From Chloroflexia bacterium (GTDB taxonomy: Bacteria > Chloroflexota > Chloroflexia > Thermomicrobiales > UBA6265), in contig JACCXM010000103.1 in the NCBI GenBank assembly GCA_013697005.1, positions 1 through 63,049 on the forward strand: a stretch of 63,049 nt of DNA, written 5' to 3'. Below, one piece after another: positions 10,748 through 48,809 of the stretch (position 1 is the stretch's first letter; each line of letters opens with the position of its first letter). The translations under genes and the position numbers were made by a program. The notes under the pieces were generated by a model that saw nothing but the letters and a program-made list of their open reading frames with translations, ran no database searches and was not told the DNA's origin.

Positions 10748-11242
10748 CTACCAACCGGAGGTTCCCGGCTCACCCTTGTAGGGACCGACAATCTCGGGAG
10801 TGACCCAGCCGCCATAGAACCCGCCGGGTTGAGGTTGGACATCGACACCGTCGATGCGGCAGACATCCATCTGAGCCGGGTAAAACGCAACGTGACCGGC
10901 GATCGAGGCAAATGGCTCGGTGGGGTCGGGATACGACCACGCGGCCTTCACGGCAGATTGCCCGTCAGTCACGACATCGAAGTATCTCGCCGTCCCTTTC
11001 CACTCGCAGAAGGAGGTCCCGTCAGCATGGCGCAATACGCCCTGGCCAATGTCCGAGGCTGGAATGTAGTACACCGGTGGATGGCTCGTTTCGAGCACGC
11101 GCCAAGTCTGCCGGGAGTCGGCGATTTTTTCGCCGCCAAACCAGATTTCAATGCGCCGGTCCGACCGCTCCAGCAGGGGTGGTCGAGGATAATCCCAGAC
11201 CGACTCCTGGCCGGGTGCCGGCGGAATGCGTTTGTTGGACAT
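10748..11242 (-). CDS. DUF427 domain-containing protein
   Basis: MSNKRIPPAPGQESVWDYPRPP...VLETSHPPVYYIP...CEWKGTARYFDV...AFYP, typical DUF427 strings. ATG at 11242 with a GGTGGAG RBS is preferred over the track start at 11332. Confidence 0.75.
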   Translation of the reverse strand: MSNKRIPPAPGQESVWDYPRPPLLERSDRRIEIWFGGEKIADSRQTWRVLETSHPPVYYIPASDIGQGVLRHADGTSFCEWKGTARYFDVVTDGQSAVKAAWSYPDPTEPFASIAGHVAFYPAQMDVCRIDGVDVQPQPGGFYGGWVTPEIVGPYKGEPGTSGW

Positions 11243-11316
11243 GGGCAGCTCCACCGCGCGCGCCAAAACCGTGTGAACCCCGGTCACACGTACCGCCACC
11301 ACGAGTATGCGTCCGA

Positions 11317-12402
11317 ATGGAACGCCGGGCACTTCGAGCGCTTCCGGCGGGAGACGAATCTGTCGTGATTGGCGGCCAGCGAGTTAAGGATATTGGTGAG
11401 TTCGGGTTGATCGAGCTCATCAGCGCGGCGCTTCCTCCGCAGATACGGGCAACCTCCAGCCTCCTTCTCGGACTTGGCGACGATGGCGCGGTGTGGCGGC
11501 CAACATCCGGGGAAGACGTGGTTGTCACCACCGACAGCCTCGTCGAAAACATTCACTTCCGGCGGGATTGGACCGACTGGGAAAGTCTCGGTCACAAGAT
11601 TCTTGCCGTAAATGTTTCCGACCTCGCCGCCATGGGCAGTCTGCCAAAAATAGCCGTCATCACTCTTGGGCTGAGTGGCGATGAACTCGTGAGCGACTTG
11701 CAGGCACTCTATCGAGGCATCGGCGATCTGGCACACCGAAACGCCATGACGATCGCCGGAGGCGACATCGTCCGCTCGCCCCATTCCCTCCTTTTTCACG
11801 TCACGGCACTGGGCGAAACCCGCCAGCGGCGATTCCTTGTTCGCTCGGGAGCAAAATCGGGCGATGTCATCGCGGTGACCGGTACCCTCGGGGCGTCCGC
11901 GGCCGGGCTTCGCCTGCTGGCGATGCAGCCAGACGACCCTCGCCGCGGCGCGACTACCACCCAGGCACTGATTGACGCTCATCTCCGACCCGAACCTCGT
12001 GTCGCGCTTGGTGCGATTTTGCTCGAGCACGGTGCGACGTCGGCGATGGATCTGAGTGACGGACTTGCGGGGGATTTACTCAAGATACTCGAGGCAAGCC
12101 GGGTTTCGGCCGAGCTCGACGCACGACGGGTGCCAGTTGCTGCCGCCGTCAGAGCACTTTTCCCAGACGAATGGTTCGATCTTGCCCTGCGTGGCGGGGA
12201 GGATTATGAACTGCTTTTCACCGCGCCATCGGTTGCGTGGGAACCGATCGCTCGCTCCATTGAGGACGTGGGCGGAACCGCGGAACGGATCGGACGCATC
12301 ACAAAGCGGATGGATGATGCATCGCGTATTGAGATCATCGATATGCGCGGAGTTCGGCGGGTCTGTGAATTCGGAGCGTTCGATCATTATCGAGATAGAT
12401 GA
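11317..12402 (+). CDS. thiL: Thiamine-monophosphate kinase ThiL
   Basis: GEFGLIELI, GLGDDGAVW, VVTTDSLVENIHF, ILAVNVSDLAAMG, GGEDYELLFT. The 5' part of track ORF 10912..12402 is antisense to DUF427 and Arg-rich junk; ATG 11317 (or GTG 11365) is the likely start. Confidence 0.9.
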   Translation: MERRALRALPAGDESVVIGGQRVKDIGEFGLIELISAALPPQIRATSSLLLGLGDDGAVWRPTSGEDVVVTTDSLVENIHFRRDWTDWESLGHKILAVNVSDLAAMGSLPKIAVITLGLSGDELVSDLQALYRGIGDLAHRNAMTIAGGDIVRSPHSLLFHVTALGETRQRRFLVRSGAKSGDVIAVTGTLGASAAGLRLLAMQPDDPRRGATTTQALIDAHLRPEPRVALGAILLEHGATSAMDLSDGLAGDLLKILEASRVSAELDARRVPVAAAVRALFPDEWFDLALRGGEDYELLFTAPSVAWEPIARSIEDVGGTAERIGRITKRMDDASRIEIIDMRGVRRVCEFGAFDHYRDR

Positions 12403-36488: not shown

Positions 36489-37394
36489 CTAGATTTGGGC
36501 CCGCTTCCAGGTAGTGACAGCGGCGACGAGACTCGCCAACGTGCTGATCGCCACCATCAGATCGGCATGCGACCTGGTGCCGGAACCAGTCCGCGGAATC
36601 TGGGAGACCACGGGATCCGAAGAGGGTAGTGAGGAGCACGCGAAGCCATCTCCGTTGGGATCCAGATTGTACGGGTCGATCGGGTCTTGGTTGTAAATCT
36701 GTTGCGCTTCCTCCTGGAAGTCGAAATCAACGCAGTCGATATCCTCCGCACCCTGTGGCTGAGCCGGCTCGTCGATCACCACTTCCATGTCTGCCGACGG
36801 TTCTTCCTGGTTGCGGCGATTGCGCCGCCTGGCCTGTGCGGTATCGTTTTCAGTCACTGGTTCGATGGCAAGTAACTCTTCGCAGGCAATTCCGTCCCCG
36901 TCTTCATCGAGGGCAACCAAGCCTTCGGGGTCAGCGTCGAATGCTTGCTGCGCCACTTCGGCGGTCGCGTAGTCGGCGCACGTTGGCGCCGGCGTCGCTG
37001 CATTGTCTTGAGTTCTGTTCCGATTTTCACGGCGGATTGGGCGCGCCGTATCGGTTGCGGTGCTCTCGTCCAGCGTGTTCTCTACGGTCGTGGCTTCGTC
37101 CGGAGCGGGATCAGAGACGGTTGCCGCGGGGAGCAAGGCACAGGCAACGCCGTCACCATTCGGGTCGAGATTGTTGGGGTCCGCATCATCCGCGTCGAGA
37201 ACTGCTTGTGCTTCCTCCTGCGTTTCAAAGTCCTCGCAGTCCAAATCGGCACCGGTTTCTTGCGCACCATGTAGTGCAAACCTCGGGGAACTGAACGACG
37301 ACGCAATCGAGCGTCCCCCATCCCAGCGGTCGACACCGGGCGCGGCAAACGCGCTCGCAAGCAGAAGCAAAAGAGAGAGATTCCAGAACTTCAT
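36489..37394 (-). CDS. Secreted protein with three Excalibur calcium-binding domains and an LPXTG-like (IPRTG) C-terminal sorting signal
   Basis: Signal peptide MKFWNLSLLLLLASAFAAPG. Three copies of C-x-DF/Y...EAQ...DP-x-GDG-x-AC (DCEDFETQEEAQ...DPNGDGVACA; CADYATAEVAQ...DEDGDGIACE; DCVDFDFQEEAQ...DPNGDGFACS). C-terminus is IPRTG + LMVAISTLASLVAAVTTW + KRAQI. Confidence 0.8.
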   Translation of the reverse strand: MKFWNLSLLLLLASAFAAPGVDRWDGGRSIASSFSSPRFALHGAQETGADLDCEDFETQEEAQAVLDADDADPNNLDPNGDGVACALLPAATVSDPAPDEATTVENTLDESTATDTARPIRRENRNRTQDNAATPAPTCADYATAEVAQQAFDADPEGLVALDEDGDGIACEELLAIEPVTENDTAQARRRNRRNQEEPSADMEVVIDEPAQPQGAEDIDCVDFDFQEEAQQIYNQDPIDPYNLDPNGDGFACSSLPSSDPVVSQIPRTGSGTRSHADLMVAISTLASLVAAVTTWKRAQI

Positions 37395-37587
37395 CGCCTC
37401 GCTTTACTCCCGCATGATGACGCCGGCATTGCTAGTATCGAGCATGCACCCAGGACATAAAGCTGGACGAACTTCAATGCGAGGCCGTTCCACATCCCAG
37501 TGTGCAGGGTGTAATGTCCGTACATGGGCAAGGTGCCACGTAAATCAGGTTTTGACAAGACCGCGACCTCTTCGCATTAGACTCGCT

Positions 37588-38046
37588 TCACCGCTTTTCG
37601 AATGCTGCCTCGTCCGCCCAGCGCCGTTCAGGATGAACTCTCCGCCAGTGGGTGACGATGCGATCAAGGTCCGCGGCGAGCACTTCGATCTCGATGGGAG
37701 CGACAAGAACCTGATCGACAGTCGCGCGCAACTCCTCATTCATGGCAATCTCACGCTCCAATCCCGCGATCACGAGAATGGGCACGTCCGTGCGTTCACC
37801 AATCTGCGATCGGTCAGCATGGCCGCGGAGCCGGCGTACGAGCTCGAGTGCCCCGATCCCGCCGAGCGCGGCGTCCAGAATCACAATGTCGAAGGAACGA
37901 AGACGAAATACTTCCAGCGTTTGCAACGCACTGGCAATAGTGCTCGTCCAGAACCCCGCGTAGATGAGGCCTTCACCAAGAAACCCAACCAGCTCCGCGT
38001 CGTCACTGACGATCAGGACGTGAGGCCGTTGCAACGCTGGCGACAT
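37588..38046 (-). CDS. Stand-alone receiver (CheY-like) domain protein, atypical
   Basis: VLIVSDD acidic pair and IVILDAAL phospho-Asp context are present. The conserved Thr/Ser (PILVIAG) and Lys (VLVAPIE instead of K-P) appear absent. ATG 38046 has a GAGGGAG RBS. Confidence 0.7.
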   Translation of the reverse strand: MSPALQRPHVLIVSDDAELVGFLGEGLIYAGFWTSTIASALQTLEVFRLRSFDIVILDAALGGIGALELVRRLRGHADRSQIGERTDVPILVIAGLEREIAMNEELRATVDQVLVAPIEIEVLAADLDRIVTHWRRVHPERRWADEAAFEKR

Positions 38047-38252
38047 ACGACTCCCTCGGAACCAGGCGAACACCGCACGTTCCGAATACGGTATGATGAC
38101 GATACCCCGCGTGACCATGGACTCGTTTTGCGCTATCCGTATCGCAGATCGCCGACGTGACATTCTTGTCCGTGGATGCGGCGCTGGACGGAATTGTGCG
38201 ATACGCTGTGGTTGAGTGTGGATCCGTGGAAACGATTGTTTCGTCTAAGGGA

Positions 38253-39344
38253 ATGGGATATGGGACAGTGCTGACCAAGCGAGGTCAAAACCCCATGTTG
38301 CTATGCGCGTGCGCGATCGCATCGGCGGCGTGGATCGCTGGCGCTACGCCTTTTTTTGTGCCGCCGGTGGCTGGCCTGGAAGTCGTCAGCGCGCAGCCGC
38401 CGCTGGTCATGACGGGTTCGCCGCGCCAAGCCGATCAGCCTGCGATTCAGCAAGTTGGCGAGGGAACTGGTCAAGACGCGGAAAACCTTGATGATGGTGA
38501 GGCGACGCCACTGATTTCCACTCCATCAGATCAAGAGACGCTCGATAACAAAGCGACTCCCGAGACGCCGCAAGGTGATACCGAGCTTTTGGATCAGGGT
38601 ACGCCTTACGTTGCGACCGATGTATCAGTCGCGCCCGTCGCTACGACCTACGCCGCACCGTCCACAGAAACCACCGTCACCTATGTCGAGCCGGCGTCAC
38701 CACCCCCGGCCGGTCCGGTGGTTCCCGCGGGATTTGGGACGGGCCAAGTTCTGGTAGCAGCGGGGCAATCGACATTCCCTGCTGGACTTGGGGAATGCCA
38801 CGTGGGAGTAGTGACCGGCCGCGCGTATGTCGGCATCGATTGTGGCGAAGGGACGTCAGTTGTCGGTCACGCGCCGACGTACCAGGACTTTCCATTCTAC
38901 CCCGCGGTTGGCTTCCCATTCGAAGGTGACGAGTCGTTTTTTACCCAAGGCGCGGATTTTCCCTTCGGCAATGAAGTCGGTGTGGAAGCACGGCAAATGG
39001 CTCGTCATAGCTTGGACGATGAGAGCCCGGCCACGGTGTCTGAAACTCGCGGCAGGTCATCCGTGGAATTTTCGCAAAGAAGTCATAAGAGAAACGGGCG
39101 GGCTCGGAATCGGAATCGGGATTCGAGGAGTGTCGCTGACTCCGGCCAACAGAGGCCGAAGCACGGCAGCGTGGCGAGTGAACGCAGCAACGACGGATCC
39201 CTCAGCACCGAATCGACCACTTCCGTCAGCGGAGAGCAACAGCTTGAGACCGAGCAGGTCGCCGCTGGCGCCACGGAGAAAAAATCCAAGAAAGCGAAGG
39301 GGACAAAGAAACCCCGGGAACGCAGAGCGCAGAGAAACCGCTGA
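38253..39344 (+). CDS. Hypothetical secreted/anchored low-complexity protein (acidic Pro/Thr-rich region, Gly-rich region, Arg/Asn/Lys-rich tail)
   Basis: Longest ORF in the region. Leader is MGYGTVLTKRGQNPMLLCACAIASAAWIAGA. The tail is ...SHKRNGRARNRNRDSRS...KKSKKAKGTKKPRERRAQRNR. No family recognised. Start is uncertain (38157, 38253 or 38295). Confidence 0.5.
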   Translation: MGYGTVLTKRGQNPMLLCACAIASAAWIAGATPFFVPPVAGLEVVSAQPPLVMTGSPRQADQPAIQQVGEGTGQDAENLDDGEATPLISTPSDQETLDNKATPETPQGDTELLDQGTPYVATDVSVAPVATTYAAPSTETTVTYVEPASPPPAGPVVPAGFGTGQVLVAAGQSTFPAGLGECHVGVVTGRAYVGIDCGEGTSVVGHAPTYQDFPFYPAVGFPFEGDESFFTQGADFPFGNEVGVEARQMARHSLDDESPATVSETRGRSSVEFSQRSHKRNGRARNRNRDSRSVADSGQQRPKHGSVASERSNDGSLSTESTTSVSGEQQLETEQVAAGATEKKSKKAKGTKKPRERRAQRNR

Positions 39345-39676: not shown

Positions 39677-40489
39677 CTAGCTCGTGAAATCCATATCGTT
39701 ATTGCCGCCGTCATCGAAAGGCTCGTCATCCAACAATCCAGCAAAGTCAGGATCGTCAGTGTTGATAATCGTCGCTCCGTTGGGACCAGAGATTGCAATG
39801 ATGTTCCCGGAACGAGCGAATGCGAAACCCCCACCAGTGCTGGCGACGACGCCAGTATTTGACTCGCCGAGCAGACCCGCGTCGAACGCGTCGATTCCAT
39901 CAAATGCGCCGGTGAGGGCGACATTGGGGTTGGTTCGCGCCACCGGATCCAGCACCGAAGCTTCGCCTACAGTCGCGTCGACACCTGGCTCATCGTCACG
40001 GTTACTCGTTTGCTCGAGTTCCCGCGAACGGCGATTGTTTCCTCGTGCGGACGCATCATCGCCAGACTGACTGCTTGCCTCGGCGTCCGAATTAGCGTCT
40101 TGCCGCCGTGAAACCCGGCGACTATTGCCTTGGGCGGATTCATCGGTAGCGGTCTCGTCCTCCGCCGCGCGCTGCTCGCGACGGGCTTGCCGTTCGCTTC
40201 TCGCATCCGCAGTCTCGGAAGCTGCTTGAGATTCGTCGTTCGTTTTTGCGTCCTTGGTCTGGTTGGTTTTCTCACCCTCGTCGTTCGCGCTCTGTTGCTT
40301 GGTGTCACTTTGGGATGCCGAATCTTCAGTTGTTTCGTCCTGCGCCTTACGCCTCTTCGTGCGCGCGGCACCAGCCACTGCTGGCAAAACGGTGGCGAAT
40401 CCAGTACTTGCCACGATTGCGCCCGATCGAGACCAGACCCGGGAGCCTGCCTTGCGCCAGGACGATAGACGGTGCAAGTGCTCGTTCAA
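39677..40489 (-). CDS. Hypothetical signal-anchored low-complexity protein (charged Arg/Asn/Asp/Glu-rich region, Gly-rich and acidic C-terminus)
   Basis: Hydrophobic segment GAIVASTGFATVLPAVAGAA, then RTKRRKAQDETTEDS...GNSRRVSRRQD...GNNRRSRELEQTSNRDDE. The C-terminus is GGGFAFARSGNIIAISGPNGATIINTDDPDFAGLLDDEPFDDGG. No family recognised. Confidence 0.5.
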   Translation of the reverse strand: MNEHLHRLSSWRKAGSRVWSRSGAIVASTGFATVLPAVAGAARTKRRKAQDETTEDSASQSDTKQQSANDEGEKTNQTKDAKTNDESQAASETADARSERQARREQRAAEDETATDESAQGNSRRVSRRQDANSDAEASSQSGDDASARGNNRRSRELEQTSNRDDEPGVDATVGEASVLDPVARTNPNVALTGAFDGIDAFDAGLLGESNTGVVASTGGGFAFARSGNIIAISGPNGATIINTDDPDFAGLLDDEPFDDGGNNDMDFTS

Positions 40490-41910: not shown

Positions 41911-42465
41911 TCAGAACTGCAGAACCACTGACTGATTTTCACCGTCACGAAGGAACTTCGCGGTCGCTTGATCGCCAGGTTTGAGGGTTTCCACCATCTG
42001 GTCCAATGCGGCCATGTTGCGCACTCGTTTGCCGGCAAAACTGGTAATGATGTCGCCAGGCTGAAGTTGAGCGCGCGAGGCGACGGTTTTGGAGCGTACC
42101 TTGCCGACGTAGACACCCTTTGTGCCTGCGGGAATGGCCTCGGCTCGCTCGGGATGCGTGGCGAGATATTCCTCGGCGTCCGCGGCCATAATGCCAAGTG
42201 GGGGACGCTTGGGACCAGCAAACTTTTCTGCCAGTTTCGCGAATTTCTGCTGATCGAACCCCAAGATTACGTCGCCGTTGGACACCGTCACCGGTACGCC
42301 CTGTTGGCCGCTGAGGCGGATCATCTCCATCGCCGCCGTGTAATCTTTAGCGACGTCCTTTTCGACGAATGGCACATTGTTTCGGCTAAGGAACTCCTTA
42401 GCTCTATCGCACCACGGTCAGGTGTTGGTGGTGTAAACCGTGACTTGAGCGGCGGTGTCCGTCAT
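41911..42465 (-). CDS. Glutaredoxin-like (YruB/NrdH-type) + PDZ fusion protein; candidate selenoprotein with in-frame UGA at 42418-42420 (U-P-W-C redox motif)
   Basis: Own translation from ATG 42465 (RBS GAAGAGGA): MTDTAAQVTVYTTNT-TGA-PWCDRAKEFLSRNNVPFVEKDVAKDYTAAMEMIRLSGQQGVPVTVSNGDVILGFD..., then PDZ (GVYVGKVRSKTVASRAQLQPGDIITSFAGKRV). The track lists only the 154-aa fragment from GTG 42375, which lacks the redox motif. Confidence 0.7.
42385..42402 (-). promoter_or_regulatory. SECIS-like hairpin downstream of the in-frame UGA
   Basis: On the mRNA: UGA + 15 nt + GCUAAGG-AGUU-CCUUAGC (perfect 7-bp stem, 4-nt loop containing GU). The loop starts 22 nt after the UGA. Confidence 0.5.
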
Positions 42466-42581
42466 CGTTGTCCTCTTCGTGTATTGCCCGGCAACCTCGT
42501 TGCGATCGGCTCTCCGCTCCCCGGTAGCCCAATGACATTATGGTACCAGTATTGATTCACCCGAAAGCGCTCAACGCCCGC

Positions 42582-44174
42582 TCACTCCCATTCAATGGTC
42601 GCCGGTGGCTTGGAGGTAATGTCGTAGACGACCCTGGTAATGCCCCGCACTTCATTGACAATGCGGTTGCTGATCCGAGCCAGGGTGTCAAAGGGGAGGC
42701 GTGTCCAGTCGGCGGTCATGGCGTCTTCGGAACTGACCGCTCTCACCGCGCAGACGCGGCCGTAGGTCCGATAATCACCCATGACTCCAACCGAGCGAAC
42801 TGGGAGAAGCACCGCAAAGCACTGCCAAACACCGGCACTCTGGCCCAACTCATCTATCTCTTCGCGGACTATTGCATCTGCTGCGCGAAGGAGATCGAGC
42901 TCTTCCCATGTGACCTCGCCAATGATGCGCACCGCGAGACCAGGACCGGGAAACGGCTGACGGTCCACGATTTCCGCGGGAAGCGCGAGAGTACGACCGA
43001 CATCGCGAACCTCGTCCTTGAACAGGTACCGTAATGGCTCGACCAACGAAAATGGCAGATCGGCTGGAAGACCGCCGACGTTGTGGTGAGACTTGATTTT
43101 GACCGCCGCATTCGTGTCGGGGGCAGTGCTCTCGATGACGTCGGGATAAAGCGTTCCTTGTGCGAGAAACTCGAACGGGCCGTGCAGGTTTGCTTGCGCT
43201 TCAAACACCCGGATGAATTCGTCGCCAACGATTTTCCGTTTTTCTTCCGGATCCACAATTCCCTGGAGCCGGCCCAGGAAGCGATCCCTCGCGTCGACGA
43301 AGATCAATTTCATCCCGAAAGCGCGATCAAACACCTCGCGCACCAGCTCAGCCTCGCCGAGCCGGAGCAGTCCGTTATCGACGAAAACTGGCGTCAAGCG
43401 GTCCCCAATGGCGCGATGAATGAGGGCCGCCGCCACCGACGAGTCGACACCACCGCTGAGTCCGAGCAAGACCCGGTTTTCACCGACGGTCTTCCGGATT
43501 TGGCGAACCGCGCTGTCTACGAAATGGGTCGCCGTCCAGTCGGTGCGACAGTGGCAGACATCAACGAGAAAATTGCGCAGCAAATCTCGGCCTAAGGGAG
43601 TATGCACGACCTCTGGATGAAATTGGATTCCAAAGCGGCGTCCGTCACTCATTGCCGCAATGGGTGCGTTGTGTGAGCTTGCGATTCCAAGGAAACCGGA
43701 TGGTAAACGCGTTACGTGATCGCCGTGACTCATCCACACATCGAGAGAAGGTGGGAGATCATGAAAGAGGGCGCACGATTGGGTGACGTCGATAGTCGCT
43801 GGTCCGTATTCTCGTTTCGCTGCCGGTTCGACTTCGCCGTCGAGATGGTGGGCGAGCAAGTGCATGCCGTAACAAATACCGAGCAAGGGCACATCTTCGC
43901 GAATGATCCAGGCGGGGAGCGATGGCGCCCCCGGGTCATAAACGCTGGCGGGTCCACCCGAGAGAATAATGCCTTTCGGCTGGAGCGGTGCCACGTCGGT
44001 CCACTCCGTGTCCCAGGGCAAGAGAACGCTGAAAACGCCCGCTTCCCGAACCCGCCGGGCGATCAACTGGCTGTACTGACTCCCGAAATCGAGCACGACA
44101 ATGGTGTCGAATTCCGGTAAGGGGACTGCCTCATTGCCGGCTTGCGCGACGCGGGCGAGCTCCATGTGTGTCAT
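42582..44174 (-). CDS. guaA: Glutamine-hydrolysing GMP synthase
   Basis: [43 protein letters not shown]-terminal [12 protein letters not shown] 44174 (MTHMELARV) is preferred over the track start at 44318. Confidence 0.95.
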
Positions 44175-44214
44175 CCGTGCTCCAATGCTTGGGCGAATCC
44201 CCGGACCCAGGCCA

Positions 44215-44673
44215 TCATTCGGCTGCAGATACGTCGCCAAGATAGTGGTACGTGCGGTCAAACTCCCAGCCAGCAATCGTCTCCAATTCGACTTCCACTC
44301 GTGGGTGCAGCGGGTCAATTCTCTTGGTTAAGTGAAGATCGACAATCGCCCGATCGTCGAATCCCAAGGCGCGGCCGAGGGCATCCAAGGTGATCTTCAA
44401 CCCCCCGTCGAGATCGCGACGATGAGGTGTCTCGAAAAAGTACACGAGGTAGACACCAAGCAAAGAGCTGCCCAGCGCGGTGCTTACTGGTACCGAAAGC
44501 TGGCCACCTGAGCGCATGGCGGCGACGATTTTCGTCACGTCGCGGTTGAAATGCTTGGCCGTCGCGCTGAGCACACGACGGCGACCCACGCTCACGTATT
44601 GATTGTTCACGCCGGGAGGAAGCGGGAGAACCACCTGGAATGTCACTGGAGCCGCCAGTTCGGAAATTGGCAT
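44215..44673 (-). CDS. rusA: RusA-like crossover junction endodeoxyribonuclease
   Basis: [12 protein letters not shown]..., [33 protein letters not shown] (the D-x-D...K...DAL...DD pattern of RusA). ATG 44673 preferred. Confidence 0.65.
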
Positions 44674-46733: not shown

Positions 46734-48809
46734 GTGTCTAACCGCCTGGCAACCGAAACGAGTCCCTACTTGCTGCAGCATGCCGAGAACCCGGTGGACT
46801 GGTTCCCATGGGGTGAAGAAGCGCTCGCCAAAGCGCGAGATGAGGACAAGCCGATCCTGGTCAGCATCGGCTACTCCGCGTGCCATTGGTGCCATGTCAT
46901 GGAACATGAATCATTCGAGAACGCGCATATCGCCAGTGCGATGAACGACCGCTTCGTCAACATCAAAGTTGACCGCGAAGAGCGCCCTGATCTCGATTCG
47001 CTTTACATGGCCGCGGTTCAAGCACTTACCGGACATGGTGGCTGGCCGCTGAATGTTTTCCTGACGCCCGATGGCACGCCATTTTATGGAGGAACCTATT
47101 TTCCCCCCGATGATCGCATGAGCATGCCCGGTTTCCCGAAAGTGCTGGAAGCCGTTGCCAATGCCTATCGAGAACGACGCGGTGAAGTCGAGGAAAATGC
47201 CCAGCAAATCCGCGACTTGCTACAACGGGCAACCAAAGAGCTGCCCAAACCAGATGATCTCTCTCCAGAGCTGTTGTCAGAAGCCGCGGAGCAACTGGCC
47301 CGATCGTTCGACGCCCGCAATGGAGGGTTCGGCGGCGCGCCGAAATTTCCGCAACCATCGGTTCTCGATTTCCTCCTGCGACACATTAAACGTGGAGGCT
47401 CACAGCGGGACATAGTGATGGTGCAGCGCACTCTCGACACTATGGCCAGTGGCGGCATCTACGATCAGATCGGCGGCGGTTTCCACCGGTACGCGGTCGA
47501 CGCGGTCTGGCTGGTGCCGCATTTCGAGAAAATGCTCTACGACAATGCCCAGCTCACTTCGCTGTATCTCGCAGGGTTCCAGTCGTTTGGTGATGATCGT
47601 TACCGGCGGGTCGCGGAGGAAACACTCGATTTTGTGGCGCGGGAGATGACCGGTCCGGATGGCGGCTTCTACGCAACGCTCGATGCCGACACAGCCGGAC
47701 ATGAAGGAACCTTCTACACCTGGACTGGCGAAGAGCTGGAGGAAACACTCGTCCCAGCCGACGCGGCTGTCGCCAAAATCTGGTTCGATGTCGAACCCGG
47801 CGGCAACTTTGAAGGCAGGACGGTTCTCGCCACCCCGAGAACTTTCGCTGATGTCGCGGACCGCCTCGACATTACAGATGCGGATGTGATCCAGTCGTTG
47901 GCAAGGATCATCCCATCGCTGCGAGAGGCACGGGAGACTCGCGATCGCCCCGGCCGCGATGAAAAGATCATCACTGCATGGAATGGTCTGATGCTGAAGG
48001 CGTTTGCGGACGGGTCACGCATTCTCGACCGGGCGGATTTTCGGCTGGTTGCGGGGCAAAACGCGAACTTCGTGCTTTCTCACCTCCAGCGCGATGGCCG
48101 CCTGTTGCGGAGCTGGAAGGACGGCGAAGCACGAATTCCCGGGTTTCTCGAAGACTATGCGTTCTTCGTCGATGGTCTCTTGAGTTTGTATCGCGCGACC
48201 CTCGACGTCAAATGGTTCGAGGAAGCGATCCGGTTAACTGACCTCACCATTGCAGAGTTCAGCAATCCCGAGGGCGCCGGTTTCTTCGATACCTCCCTGG
48301 CTCACGAAACTCCTGTTACCAGACCCCGCGATCTTCACGACGGCGCCACGCCATCCGGCAATGCGGTGTCCGCCGAAAATCTGTTGCGCTTGGGAGCGAT
48401 GACCGGGAATCACGACTACACCGAGCGCGGCAGCGATATCCTGCGCGTCATGGCGCGGACCATGCGAGAACATCCCATTGCCGCGGGTCGCTATCTTGGT
48501 GCCACCGACTTCGCGCTGGGTCCGACCAAGGAGTTGGCATTGGTGGGCGACAAAAACAGTGATGAACTTCAGGCCCTGGTCGATGTGACATACGAACGAT
48601 TCGAGCCAAACTTCATCGCCGGGTACGTTGCGTCCCATGGCGCTGACACAGCGAACAGAATGCCGTTCCTCCAGAACCGATCCGCTCGAGATGGGCGCGC
48701 TACGGCCTATGTCTGCGAGCACTTCGCATGTCTGCCCCCTACACATGAACCCGCCGAGCTGTCACGACAACTTGCCGAGGGAACGGGAATCCTCTGGCGC
48801 GACGTCTAG
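46734..48809 (+). CDS. Thioredoxin-domain (DUF255/YyaL-type) protein with C-terminal six-hairpin glycosidase-like domain
   Basis: [54 protein letters not shown]; 691 aa. Confidence 0.85.

What the first reader, a model, noticed from the sequence alone, without database searches (positions are those of the whole stretch)
41911..42465. Candidate selenoprotein: glutaredoxin-like/PDZ fusion with in-frame UGA replacing the first Cys of the CxxC motif, plus a SECIS-like hairpin
The ORF track lists only a 154-aa fragment from GTG 42375 (MPFVEKDV...). That fragment lacks strand beta-1 and the redox helix of the thioredoxin fold.

Reading the minus strand upstream in the same frame gives, from ATG 42465 (RBS GAAGAGGA): MTDTAAQVTVYTTNT-[TGA]-PWCDRAKEFLSRNNVPFVEKDV. 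This is the standard N-terminus of a YruB/NrdH/glutaredoxin-like protein. The TGA (42418-42420) sits exactly where the first Cys of C-P-W-C belongs.

Fifteen nt after the UGA the mRNA forms a perfect 7-bp hairpin, GCUAAGG-AGUU-CCUUAGC (42385-42402). Its apical loop starts 22 nt from the UGA and has G in its second position. As far as I recall, this matches the published bacterial SECIS descriptors (16-37 nt distance, G in the first two loop positions).

Sec at the attacking Cys position of thioredoxin-fold proteins is the classic selenoprotein pattern. The C-terminal PDZ fusion is itself unusual for a glutaredoxin.
Basis: partly seen in the sequence, partly recalled or inferred. Interest (0 to 1): 0.85.

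Follow-up and report, generated by a model that had tools for sequence, protein, structure and literature searches.

The report
Unannotated selenocysteine glutaredoxin-PDZ gene with SECIS
This is almost certainly a real selenoprotein gene, a glutaredoxin-like redox domain fused to a PDZ peptide-binding domain, whose selenocysteine UGA made gene callers cut off its active site; it is a well-supported new member of a known kind, not a new kind of system.

Summary
On the minus strand, ATG 42465 opens a 184-codon frame with one in-frame TGA (42418-42420) at the first Cys of C-P-W-C, and a perfect 7-bp hairpin (42385-42402) lies 15 nt downstream.

Reading through the TGA completes the Pfam glutaredoxin domain. 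The annotated 154-aa product is a gene-caller truncation.

Comparative evidence is decisive:
- 60 orthologs from Thermomicrobiales/Chloroflexota genomes and metagenomes carry TGA at this codon, with conserved protein on both sides; 43 carry Cys.
- A hairpin meeting the published bacterial SECIS criteria is present in 56/60 TGA forms and 4/43 Cys forms.
- Its stem covaries (U-A, G-C and C-G at one pair).
- Synonymous sites inside the hairpin are frozen; those outside drift.
- TGA is also the gene's own terminator, so the codon is not reassigned.

The Sec machinery (selA/B/C/D) is not in the window and could not be checked in the rest of the genome.

Sec-glutaredoxins and a Trx/PDZ selenoprotein are already known, and NCBIfam curates a "Uxx-star glutaredoxin-like (seleno)protein" model that this clade straddles. 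The HtrA-type PDZ fusion is the only unusual feature. A role as a substrate-tethered disulfide reductase is inferred, not shown.

The parts
41911..42465 (-). Full selenoprotein CDS: 184 codons with Sec at codon 16, including the terminator TGA at 41911-41913.
   Evidence: Orthologs 51-91% identical cover residues 1-184 in one frame.
42471..42478 (-). Shine-Dalgarno-like GAAGAGGA, 5 nt upstream of the ATG at 42463-42465.
   Evidence: Read directly. An ATG or GTG start 11-22 codons upstream of the TGA is present in the orthologs.
42418..42420 (-). In-frame UGA read as selenocysteine (residue 16), the first position of the U-P-W-C redox motif. The resolving Cys19 is at 42409-42411.
   Evidence: It aligns with Cys in full-length homologs. 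TGA is conserved at this codon in 60 orthologs.
42385..42402 (-). Bacterial SECIS element inside the coding sequence: a 7-bp stem GCUAAGG/CCUUAGC with the apical loop AGUU (42392-42395), 15 nt after the UGA.
   Evidence: -9.0 kcal/mol. It meets all four published bSECIS criteria. Pairing is 100% with compensatory changes, and 0 of 500 shuffles reach the observed score. It is present in 56/60 Sec forms and 4/43 Cys forms.
42265..42444 (-). Glutaredoxin-like (YruB/NrdH-type) thioredoxin-fold domain, residues 8-67.
   Evidence: Pfam PF00462, 3.3e-16, profile positions 1-60 of 60. TIGR02196 scores 84.9 bits and NF041212 64.2 bits. The AF2 model gives beta-alpha-beta-alpha-beta-beta-alpha.
42190..42201 (-). 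P-L-G-I (residues 89-92), the PDZ carboxylate-binding loop. It aligns with E-L-G-I of E. coli DegP PDZ1.
   Evidence: Residue-level alignment KRPPLGIM / KRGELGIM. L90 and G91 are invariant across 47 family members.
41926..42144 (-). HtrA/DegP-type PDZ domain, residues 108-180. The homology to DegP PDZ1 starts at about residue 81.
   Evidence: Pfam PDZ_2, 1.4e-14. The profile hits DegP residues 255-353. The model superposes on isolated HtrA PDZ domains at TM 0.76-0.81 and rmsd 2.1-2.5 A.
42373..42375 (-). GTG (Val31) used by gene callers as a false start for the 154-aa 'PDZ domain-containing protein'. It is not a conserved start codon.
   Evidence: Public calls of 137, 139, 147, 151 and 154 aa start at different codons. 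The third base of this Val codon varies freely (G10, T7, C6, A1, column 60).

Best explanation
The locus encodes one 184-residue cytoplasmic selenoprotein.

Decoding. Translation starts at ATG 42465. At codon 16 the UGA is decoded as selenocysteine, because the mRNA forms a SECIS hairpin 15 nt downstream (7-bp stem, AGUU loop). That hairpin would recruit SelB carrying Sec-tRNA(Sec). The hairpin lies in the codons for A-K-E-F-L-S, so RNA structure and protein sequence constrain each other.

Product. The protein is a YruB/NrdH-type glutaredoxin-like domain with a U-P-W-C active site, where Sec is the attacking nucleophile and Cys19 the resolving residue. A short K-R-P-P linker joins it to an HtrA/DegP-type PDZ1 domain whose carboxylate-binding loop is intact.

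What is shown: the conserved UGA/Cys pairing, the coding conservation on both sides of the UGA, the SECIS covariation, and the two domain identities.

What is inferred:
- Insertion is SelB-dependent.
- The protein is a protein-disulfide (or mixed-disulfide) reductase. Its PDZ domain would tether substrates by a C-terminal or exposed hydrophobic peptide, much as HtrA proteases hold clients, with the redox domain in place of the protease domain.
- It is recycled by a thioredoxin-reductase-type system rather than glutathione.
For: Sequence-level support:
- Reading through the TGA completes the glutaredoxin profile (positions 1-60 of 60).
- All full-length homologs have C-[PS]-[WF]-C at this position.

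Conservation of the TGA:
- 23 of 26 species-representative Thermomicrobiales/Chloroflexota genomes have TGA at the same codon, with V-T-V-Y-T-T-x-T upstream and P-W-C-D-R-A-K downstream. The other three have TGC or TGT.
- A protein-pattern scan of metagenomes, which is blind to the hairpin, adds 36 TGA forms and about 40 Cys forms.
- Upstream of the TGA, first and second codon positions are invariant while third positions use up to four bases (columns 3-12). That region is therefore translated.

The hairpin:
- It meets the published bSECIS model (loop 3-9 nt, stem 4-16 bp, G in the first two loop positions, 16-37 nt spacing, energy at or below -7.5 kcal/mol; PMC13188914). Here the loop is 4 nt, the stem 7 bp, the loop sequence AGUU, the spacing 22 nt and the energy -9.0 kcal/mol.
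- The same criteria applied to all sequences pass 56/60 Sec forms and 4/43 Cys forms (Fisher p = 3e-19, not corrected for phylogeny).
- Covariation: over 51 distinct Sec forms the core stem is 355/357 cells paired. Pair 33/46 is U-A 39, G-C 11, C-G 1, and pair 36/43 is G-C 50, A-U 1. None of 500 shuffles reach the score, and slid controls fall to 34-59% paired.
- Third-codon positions inside the hairpin are frozen on minority codons. CTT is 14% of Leu codons in the window but occurs in 50/51 Sec forms. GCT is 14% of Ala codons but occurs in 39/51.
- Cys orthologs that keep the same amino acids use other codons, for example L015 (GAA, CTG).
- Distant UPYC-type Sec forms (44-46% identity) have a different 8-bp stem with a GUU or GUA loop at the same distance from the UGA.

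Other support:
- TGA is the true terminator of this gene here and in 12 of 27 loci, so there is no genome-wide reassignment.
- Chloroflexota are documented Sec users (PMC1794560; PMC13326102).
- PDZ identity and the intact binding loop are shown.
Against: - No selA, selB, selD or tRNA-Sec was found in the window or in about 300 kb of orthologous flanks. The only SelD-like hit is ThiL.
- I found no paper documenting the Sec trait in Thermomicrobiales specifically.
- Four of 60 TGA forms have hairpins below the energy or loop criteria.
- The functional part is weakly supported. The AF2 model has pTM 0.57, so the inter-domain geometry is undetermined.
- Gene neighbours are housekeeping and variable: guaA or ftsY upstream, MgtC and TrmH-like downstream. 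No redox partner is nearby.
- There is no experimental evidence of selenium incorporation.
Confidence: 0.88

Rival explanations
1. The TGA is a nonsense mutation or a sequencing error (TGC to TGA) in an ordinary Cys glutaredoxin-PDZ gene, so this copy is a pseudogene or an artefact.
For: The source is a single MAG contig. Cys orthologs with TGC or TGT exist. One TGA relative, L025, has a frameshift.
Against: - The same TGA occurs in 60 independent assemblies spanning 44-91% protein identity, with intact frames.
- Protein-level purifying selection acts on both sides of the TGA.
- The hairpin co-occurs with TGA and covaries.
- The L025 lesion is one extra G in a homopolymer of a long-read assembly.
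Confidence: 0.02
2. The UGA is read through without selenocysteine, for example by near-cognate Trp or Cys insertion or another recoding route. The hairpin would then be a generic read-through or pausing stimulator, not a SelB-binding SECIS.
For: No Sec machinery could be shown for this genome. The bSECIS descriptor is loose: 23 TGA junctions in this window pass it. No Rfam family matches the hairpin.
Against: - The recoded position is the catalytic nucleophile and alternates only with Cys in orthologs, which is the classical Sec/Cys signature.
- The apical loop G-U is invariant in the main family, and the one Cys form that keeps the stem has lost the loop G (L048, AUUU).
- Spacing and loop features match SelB-type SECIS elements.
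- Sec use is documented in the phylum.
Confidence: 0.06
3. The UGA is a real terminator and the locus yields two products: a 15-residue leader peptide and a PDZ-only protein re-initiated at GTG 42375. This could act as a selenium- or stress-responsive switch.
For: Gene callers and GenBank annotate 137-154-aa 'PDZ domain-containing protein' products. Bacterial Sec insertion is generally inefficient (my own knowledge), so some termination at the UGA is expected.
Against: - No internal start is conserved. The GTG is Val31, and its third base varies freely (column 60). Public calls start at five different codons.
- The glutaredoxin fold would be split between strand beta-1 and the redox helix.
- Residues 1-30 are as conserved as the rest of the protein.
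Confidence: 0.03
4. The real gene is the 195-aa ORF on the opposite (+) strand (41968-42555), and the minus-strand reading is incidental.
For: A long antisense ORF exists here and in 18 related loci.
Against: The + strand ORF has no Pfam match. The minus-strand product matches Glutaredoxin and PDZ at 1e-14 to 1e-16. Shadow ORFs of this kind are expected at 60% GC.
Confidence: 0.005

Closest known systems
Sec-containing glutaredoxin (Pfam PF00462, UxxC), e.g. the Clostridium oremlandii selenoprotein Grx. It is listed as experimentally verified in PMC13188914, citing Kim et al. 2011.
   Same: Both have the glutaredoxin fold and Sec at the first position of UxxC, and both have Cys-containing homologs. 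The SECIS of this gene lies just downstream inside the coding sequence. The family profile hits the PDB Grx entries 4tr0/4tr1 at 7e-11.
   Different: - This protein carries a C-terminal HtrA-type PDZ domain of about 100 residues.
- The motif is UPWC.
- The domain scores best against the YruB/NrdH-type model rather than classical GSH-dependent Grx3.
- The lineage is Thermomicrobiales (Chloroflexota), not Clostridia or Deltaproteobacteria.
NCBIfam NF041212 'Uxx-star family glutaredoxin-like (seleno)protein', and UXX-star families 1-3 (NF041114, NF041211, NF047338).
   Same: It is a curated model for small Grx-like (seleno)proteins. A Cys ortholog 75% identical to this protein is named by it in GenBank (P0095, MFT4037555.1). 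Clade members score 60.9-66.9 bits against the cut-off of 66.
   Different: - The window protein scores 64.2, just under the cut-off.
- The model is a 70-residue domain with no PDZ.
- UXX-star family 1 is listed with a UxxT motif, whereas this protein has UxxC.
- The specific families 1-3 are far below cut-off (36-40 bits against 72-100).
Trx7/PDZ domain-containing (seleno)protein (NCBIfam NF041199), found in ocean metagenomes.
   Same: It is also a thioredoxin-fold selenoprotein fused to a PDZ domain, so the concept of a PDZ-coupled redox selenoprotein is not new.
   Different: - The redox domain is different (Thioredoxin_7, about 390 aa).
- Sec is at the second position (CxxU).
- Only the PDZ part of this protein matches (32 bits against a cut-off of 300), so the two are not homologous as whole proteins.
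YruB-family glutaredoxin-like proteins (TIGR02196) and NrdH redoxins.
   Same: This is the best-scoring NCBIfam model (84.9 bits). These are small CxxC redoxins of the Grx fold that, as I recall, are reduced by thioredoxin reductase rather than glutathione.
   Different: The window protein is below the trusted cut-off (88.55; other clade members score 78-96). These families have no PDZ domain and mostly carry Cys.
HtrA/DegP/DegQ serine proteases (PDZ1 domain).
   Same: The linker plus PDZ aligns with DegP residues 255-353, including the carboxylate-binding loop (KRPPLGIM against KRGELGIM). The structure matches HtrA PDZ domains at TM 0.76-0.81.
   Different: There is no protease domain, signal peptide or second PDZ. 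The glutaredoxin domain occupies the N-terminal position that the protease domain holds in HtrA.
E. coli fdhF-type bacterial SECIS and the bSECISearch consensus model.
   Same: It is a stem-loop immediately downstream of the UGA within the ORF. It has a small apical loop with G followed by U, 22-nt spacing, and energy below -7.5 kcal/mol.
   Different: The sequence is unrelated to that of fdhF. The core is a perfect 7-bp stem with a 4-nt loop and no conserved bulge. No Rfam model matches it.

Membership tests
Bacterial selenoprotein gene (Sec-UGA decoding) | An in-frame UGA aligns with a conserved, catalytic Cys in homologs (a Sec/Cys pair). | tested here: met
   Full-length homologs have C-P-W-C at this position. 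There are 60 TGA orthologs and 43 Cys orthologs at the same codon.
Bacterial selenoprotein gene (Sec-UGA decoding) | The coding sequence is conserved at the protein level on both sides of the UGA. | tested here: met
   VTVYTTxT is upstream and PWCDRAKEF downstream. Third-position drift occurs upstream only. The Grx profile is completed only by read-through.
Bacterial selenoprotein gene (Sec-UGA decoding) | A bSECIS stem-loop meets the published model: loop 3-9 nt, stem 4-16 bp, G in the first two loop positions, 16-37 nt from the UGA, energy at or below -7.5 kcal/mol. | tested here: met
   The criteria are from PMC13188914. Here the loop is AGUU, the stem 7 bp, the spacing 22 nt and the energy -9.0 kcal/mol.
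Bacterial selenoprotein gene (Sec-UGA decoding) | The SECIS is conserved with covariation in Sec orthologs and absent from Cys orthologs. | tested here: met
   56/60 Sec forms pass against 4/43 Cys forms. Two stem pairs show compensatory changes, one of them with three pair types, and 0 of 500 shuffles reach the score.
Bacterial selenoprotein gene (Sec-UGA decoding) | selA, selB, selD and tRNA-Sec are present in the same genome. | not testable with these tools
   None is in the 63-kb window or the fetched flanks.
Bacterial selenoprotein gene (Sec-UGA decoding) | Selenium incorporation is shown experimentally. | not testable with these tools
   This needs 75Se labelling or mass spectrometry.
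Glutaredoxin domain (Pfam PF00462) | The score is above the Pfam gathering threshold over the whole domain. | tested here: met
   59.6 bits against 22.9, profile positions 1-60 of 60, with U read as C.
NCBIfam NF041212 Uxx-star family glutaredoxin-like (seleno)protein | The score is at or above the curated cut-off of 66 bits. | tested here: not met
   The window protein scores 64.2. Relatives score 60.9, 62.0, 66.1, 66.9 and 66.9, so the clade straddles the cut-off.
NCBIfam TIGR02196 YruB-family glutaredoxin-like protein | The score is at or above the curated cut-off of 88.55 bits. | tested here: not met
   The window protein scores 84.9. Relatives score 78.2-96.4.
NCBIfam NF041199 Trx7/PDZ domain-containing (seleno)protein | A full-length match at or above 300 bits, a Thioredoxin_7 domain, and a CxxU motif. 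| tested here: not met
   The score is 32.3 bits, over the PDZ part only. The motif here is UxxC in a PF00462 domain.
HtrA/DegP serine protease | A trypsin-like protease domain precedes the PDZ domain(s). | tested here: not met
   Only DegP residues 255-353 (PDZ1) are matched. TIGR02037 scores 53 bits against a cut-off of 416.

The most novel reading that the evidence does not exclude
The most novel reading still open has three linked parts.

- Sec-Grx-PDZ is a substrate-tethered 'redox HtrA': a cytoplasmic quality-control reductase. An HtrA-type PDZ1 captures client C-termini and presents them to a selenocysteine active site.
- Its wide presence shows that largely aerobic soil Thermomicrobiales are an undocumented Sec-using lineage.
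- In this lineage Sec would be the ancestral state of the protein and would have been replaced by Cys at least five times.

The in-ORF SECIS would also dictate the protein sequence: E-F-L-[S/R] in Sec forms against x-Y-L-x in Cys forms.
Probability: 0.3. Interest if true: 0.55.

Novelty: new member of a known kind. Interest (0 to 1): 0.42.

Why it matters
- Annotation. The deposited annotation of this gene and of dozens of relatives is wrong. They are called as 137-154-aa 'PDZ domain-containing protein', 'S1-C subfamily serine protease' or 'serine protease Do'. This hides the redox active site and undercounts selenoproteins in soil Chloroflexota.
- SECIS genetics. The family gives an unusually clean natural experiment. 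About half the orthologs use Sec and half use Cys, and the hairpin appears, covaries and decays in step. Amino-acid changes (Ser to Arg, Leu to Phe) compensate for synonymous changes across the stem. This makes it a good training and benchmark case for selenoprotein finders.
- Biochemistry. A Grx-PDZ fusion suggests a testable targeting mechanism for a disulfide reductase.
- Scope. None of this overturns current understanding. It extends a known class to a new lineage and a new domain architecture.

Tried and rejected
- Rfam: no match at gathering thresholds for the whole window or at permissive E-values on the hairpin. Rfam has no model for this element.
- tRNA-Sec: ARAGORN found no tRNA in the window or in 26 related loci.
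- Sec machinery: E. coli SelA, SelB and SelD (fetched) were searched by tblastn against the window and all loci. There was no SelA or SelB hit. The single SelD-like hit (11479-12135) is ThiL, a false lead (TIGR01379, 283 bits).
- A second selenoprotein in the window or flanks, as independent proof of the Sec trait:
  - The motif scan was too permissive.
  - The bSECIS-descriptor scan gave 23 hits, and only this gene has homology support.
  - The Sec/Cys-pair tblastn scan gave 202 'other' hits, all apparently out-of-frame shadows of conserved genes.
  - None of the three was informative.
- Literature on Sec use in Thermomicrobia or Sphaerobacter: nothing relevant, and no supplements are held for BSepDB. 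No paper combines selenoprotein, glutaredoxin-like and PDZ.
- Gene neighbourhood as a functional clue: only housekeeping genes, and they vary.
- AF2 inter-domain geometry: each domain is confident, but pTM is 0.57, so no inference about PDZ/active-site juxtaposition is possible. No two-domain PDB match was found.
- Looking up a U-containing sequence in the protein collection: the tool rejects 'U', and the X-containing version is not in the collection.
Full report
**1. The observation**

On the minus strand an ATG at 42465-42463, preceded by GAAGAGGA (42478-42471), opens a frame that reads MTDTAAQVTVYTTNT, then TGA (42420-42418), then PWCDRAKEFLSRNNVPFVEKDV... It runs on to a terminator TGA at 41913-41911. 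The mechanical ORF list holds only the 154-aa piece from GTG 42375.

The sequence GCTAAGG-AGTT-CCTTAGC occupies 42402-42385, 15 nt after the TGA. It is part of the minimum-free-energy fold of the region.

With the TGA read as Cys, the Pfam Glutaredoxin profile is matched from its first to its last position (residues 8-67, 59.6 bits, cut-off 22.9), and PDZ_2 matches residues 108-180. Every coordinate in the finding is right.

**2. Is it more than chance?**

On this sequence alone, only weakly.
- The 71-nt fold has z = -2.2, and 6 of 200 shuffles fold as well.
- In this 60% GC window, 23 TGA-joined ORF pairs pass a loose bacterial-SECIS descriptor.

The descriptor match is thus not strong evidence by itself. 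The case rests on comparison with relatives.

**3. Homologs**

A protein search returned two populations.
- Full-length proteins of 181-192 aa carry the Grx domain. All have C-[PS]-[WF]-C at the position of the TGA.
- About 75 of the best 120 clusters are 'PDZ-only' calls of 137-154 aa. They are annotated as 'S1-C subfamily serine protease', 'serine protease Do' or 'PDZ domain-containing protein'. They begin at five different codons just after the position of the TGA, which is what gene callers do at a Sec codon.

The window's own public call (P0004, contig length 63049) is one of these truncated calls.

**4. DNA of the relatives**

A scan of species-representative genomes gave 26 orthologous loci, 51-91% identical, all from Thermomicrobiales, Sphaerobacterales or Chloroflexota MAGs.
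- 23 have TGA at exactly this codon, flanked by V-T-V-Y-T-T-x-T and P-W-C-D-R-A-K-E-F.
- Three have TGC or TGT.
- All but one are uninterrupted frames. The exception, L025, has one extra G in a G-run of a long-read MAG.

A second scan of metagenome contigs was seeded from protein patterns far from the hairpin, so it was blind to it. It added 36 TGA forms and about 40 Cys forms.

Upstream of the TGA the first and second codon positions are invariant, while third positions use up to four bases (columns 3-12). The 15 codons before the TGA are therefore translated.

TGA is also the real terminator of this gene here and in 12 of 27 loci, so the codon is not reassigned genome-wide.

**5. The hairpin**

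The published bacterial SECIS model requires four things (PMC13188914, Fig. 2 legend):
- an apical loop of 3-9 nt and an upper stem of 4-16 bp;
- a G in the first two loop positions, usually followed by G or U;
- 16-37 nt between the UGA and the loop;
- an energy of -7.5 kcal/mol or lower.

The window element has a 4-nt loop AGUU, a 7-bp stem, 22-nt spacing and -9.0 kcal/mol.

Applying the same test to every sequence gives 56 of 60 Sec forms passing and 4 of 43 Cys forms passing (Fisher p = 3e-19, not corrected for relatedness). The four Sec exceptions still have a weaker hairpin at the same place.

Pair counting gives the following.
- On the 24 genome sequences, 168 of 168 cells are paired, two pairs show changes on both sides, and 0 of 500 shuffles reach the score.
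- On 51 distinct Sec forms, the seven core pairs are 355/357 cells paired. Pair 33/46 is U-A 39, G-C 11, C-G 1, and pair 36/43 is G-C 50, A-U 1.
- The one search run also included an optional, mostly absent eighth pair. In that run the slid controls fall to 34-59% paired.

The compensations cross the genetic code. A synonymous GCU-to-GCG (Ala) change is matched by AGC-to-CGC (Ser to Arg). AAG-to-AAA (Lys) is matched by CUU-to-UUU (Leu to Phe).

Third-codon positions inside the hairpin are frozen on minority codons. CTT is 14% of Leu codons in the window but occurs in 50/51 Sec forms, and GCT is 14% of Ala codons but occurs in 39/51. Third positions just outside the hairpin drift freely.

Cys orthologs lose the structure, at -2.1 to -4.6 kcal/mol.
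- This holds even where the amino acids are unchanged (L015: GAA, CUG).
- Cys forms typically have Tyr where Sec forms have Phe.
- One Cys form (L048) keeps the stem but has lost the loop G. That fits a recent Sec-to-Cys switch.

Distant Sec forms with a U-P-Y-C motif (44-46% identity) carry a different 8-bp stem with a GUU or GUA loop, starting at the same distance from the UGA.

A midpoint-rooted neighbour-joining tree places Sec forms on the deepest branches and Cys forms in at least five derived clusters. This is suggestive only.

**6. What could not be shown**

- The window has no tRNA and no Rfam match.
- E. coli SelA, SelB and SelD used as probes found nothing in the window or in about 300 kb of orthologous flanks, apart from ThiL.
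- The related loci hold no tRNA.
- The rest of the genome was out of reach.
- Three attempts to find a second selenoprotein gene in the held sequence produced only noise.
- The literature documents Sec use in Chloroflexi/Chloroflexota: three selenoprotein families in 2006, and Dehalococcoidia MAGs with 46-49 selenoproteins. I found nothing on Thermomicrobiales specifically.

**7. The protein**

*N-terminal domain.* It scores best against the YruB-family Grx-like model (84.9 bits, cut-off 88.55) and next against NCBIfam's 'Uxx-star family glutaredoxin-like (seleno)protein' (64.2, cut-off 66). Other clade members fall on both sides of both cut-offs. GenBank already names one Cys ortholog with the Uxx-star name.

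*C-terminal part.* It aligns with E. coli DegP residues 255-353, which is PDZ1 with its preceding linker. KRPPLGIM aligns to KRGELGIM, the carboxylate-binding loop. L90 and G91 are invariant in the family.

*Structure.* An AlphaFold2 model of a 79%-identical Cys ortholog is confident for each domain (mean pLDDT 87.6) but not for their relative orientation (pTM 0.57). The PDZ part superposes on isolated HtrA PDZ domains at TM 0.76-0.81. No solved structure spans both domains.

*Location and context.* There is no N-terminal extension that could be a signal peptide: strand beta-1 begins at residue 8. Neighbours are housekeeping genes and vary between lineages: guaA or ftsY upstream, an MgtC-family gene and a convergent TrmH-like methyltransferase downstream. 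Context therefore gives no functional clue.

**8. Most likely mechanism**

*Shown.* There is a conserved UGA/Cys alternation at the catalytic position of a Grx fold, and it is coupled to a covarying SECIS-type hairpin.

*Inferred.* SelB carrying Sec-tRNA(Sec) binds the AGUU-capped stem and inserts Sec at codon 16. The resulting U-P-W-C redoxin reduces disulfides or mixed disulfides. The PDZ domain tethers client proteins through a C-terminal or exposed hydrophobic peptide, as in HtrA proteases, with the redox domain in the place of the protease. Recycling is probably by a thioredoxin-reductase-type system, as I recall for NrdH/YruB-type redoxins.

*Rivals.* Each is contradicted by the data above, as set out in the rival explanations section:
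- a pseudogene or sequencing error;
- Sec-independent read-through;
- a two-product switch;
- an antisense gene.

**9. Novelty**

Sec-glutaredoxin (PF00462, UxxC) is an experimentally verified selenoprotein family. A Trx7/PDZ selenoprotein (CxxU) and several 'UXX-star' Grx-like selenoprotein families are already catalogued (PMC13188914, PMC9312934).

This gene is therefore a new, currently mis-annotated member of a known kind. Two modest twists are an HtrA-type PDZ fusion and a lineage (Thermomicrobiales) for which I found no published selenoprotein record.

Its main value is for correcting annotation, and as an unusually clean natural example of SECIS/Sec co-evolution.

Noticed in passing
window 46734-48809 (+): A 691-aa protein has an N-terminal DUF255/Thioredox_DsbH thioredoxin-like domain (264 bits) with a C-H-W-C motif. 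It also has a weak hit to the DsbD-like part of the selenoprotein TsoB. It is syntenic with the Grx-PDZ gene in the closest relatives (orf691-proC-rnz-guaA-grxPDZ). It is a second thiol-redox gene nearby, but no link to the selenoprotein was shown.
   Followed up: partly
L001 6610-7080 (+), and the equivalent position in 15 other loci; absent from the window between 41826 and 41910: In 16 of 27 loci an MgtC-family membrane protein gene (PF02308, 125 bits) sits about 58 nt downstream of the Grx-PDZ gene on the same strand. In the window it is missing: the Grx-PDZ stop is only 85 nt from the end of the convergent TrmH-like gene.
   Followed up: partly
window 10912-12402 (+): The only SelD-like hit in the window is ThiL (thiamine-phosphate kinase, TIGR01379, 283 bits). 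The ORF as listed has about 165 extra N-terminal residues that do not match the family, so the true start is probably downstream, or there is a fused or overlapping upstream element.
   Followed up: no
window 42582-44318 (-): The guaA (GMP synthase) ORF is listed from a TTG that adds about 72 residues before the family match begins. The real start is probably near 44100. guaA ends 116 nt upstream of the selenoprotein start, on the same strand.
   Followed up: no
L025 about 6271 (contig CAVVTE010000027.1): The closest-clade ortholog has a one-base insertion (CTCGGGC against CTCGGC) that breaks the frame after the PLGI loop. Being in a homopolymer of a long-read MAG, it looks like an assembly error rather than a pseudogene.
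   Followed up: yes
L048 (Ga0170475_114108812) and protein P0001: A Cys form with a C-S-W-C motif still has the complete 7-bp stem (GCGAAGG/CCUUCGC), but its loop is AUUU instead of AGUU. This looks like a snapshot of SECIS decay shortly after a Sec-to-Cys replacement.
   Followed up: partly
L111, L114, L116, L117, L121 (metagenome contigs, 44-47% identity): A distant Grx-PDZ subfamily has a U-P-Y-C motif. Its SECIS is an 8-bp stem with a 3-nt GUU or GUA loop at the same distance from the UGA. This suggests the Sec form of this architecture extends beyond the main Thermomicrobiales clade. The source organisms are unknown.
   Followed up: partly
L106 (Ga0136611_10021450): A TGA form has A-K-E-Y-L-R and a mismatched stem in the usual register. 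[quoted passage not shown] It could be a divergent SECIS or a decaying gene.
   Followed up: no
window 36489-37394 (-), 37060-38160 (+), 38157-39344 (+), 39677-40489 (-): These ORFs, downstream of the TrmH-like gene, have no NCBIfam or Pfam match except one Excalibur calcium-binding motif. Their relatives in other loci are low-complexity, Asp/Glu/Ser/Lys-rich proteins that look secreted.
   Followed up: no
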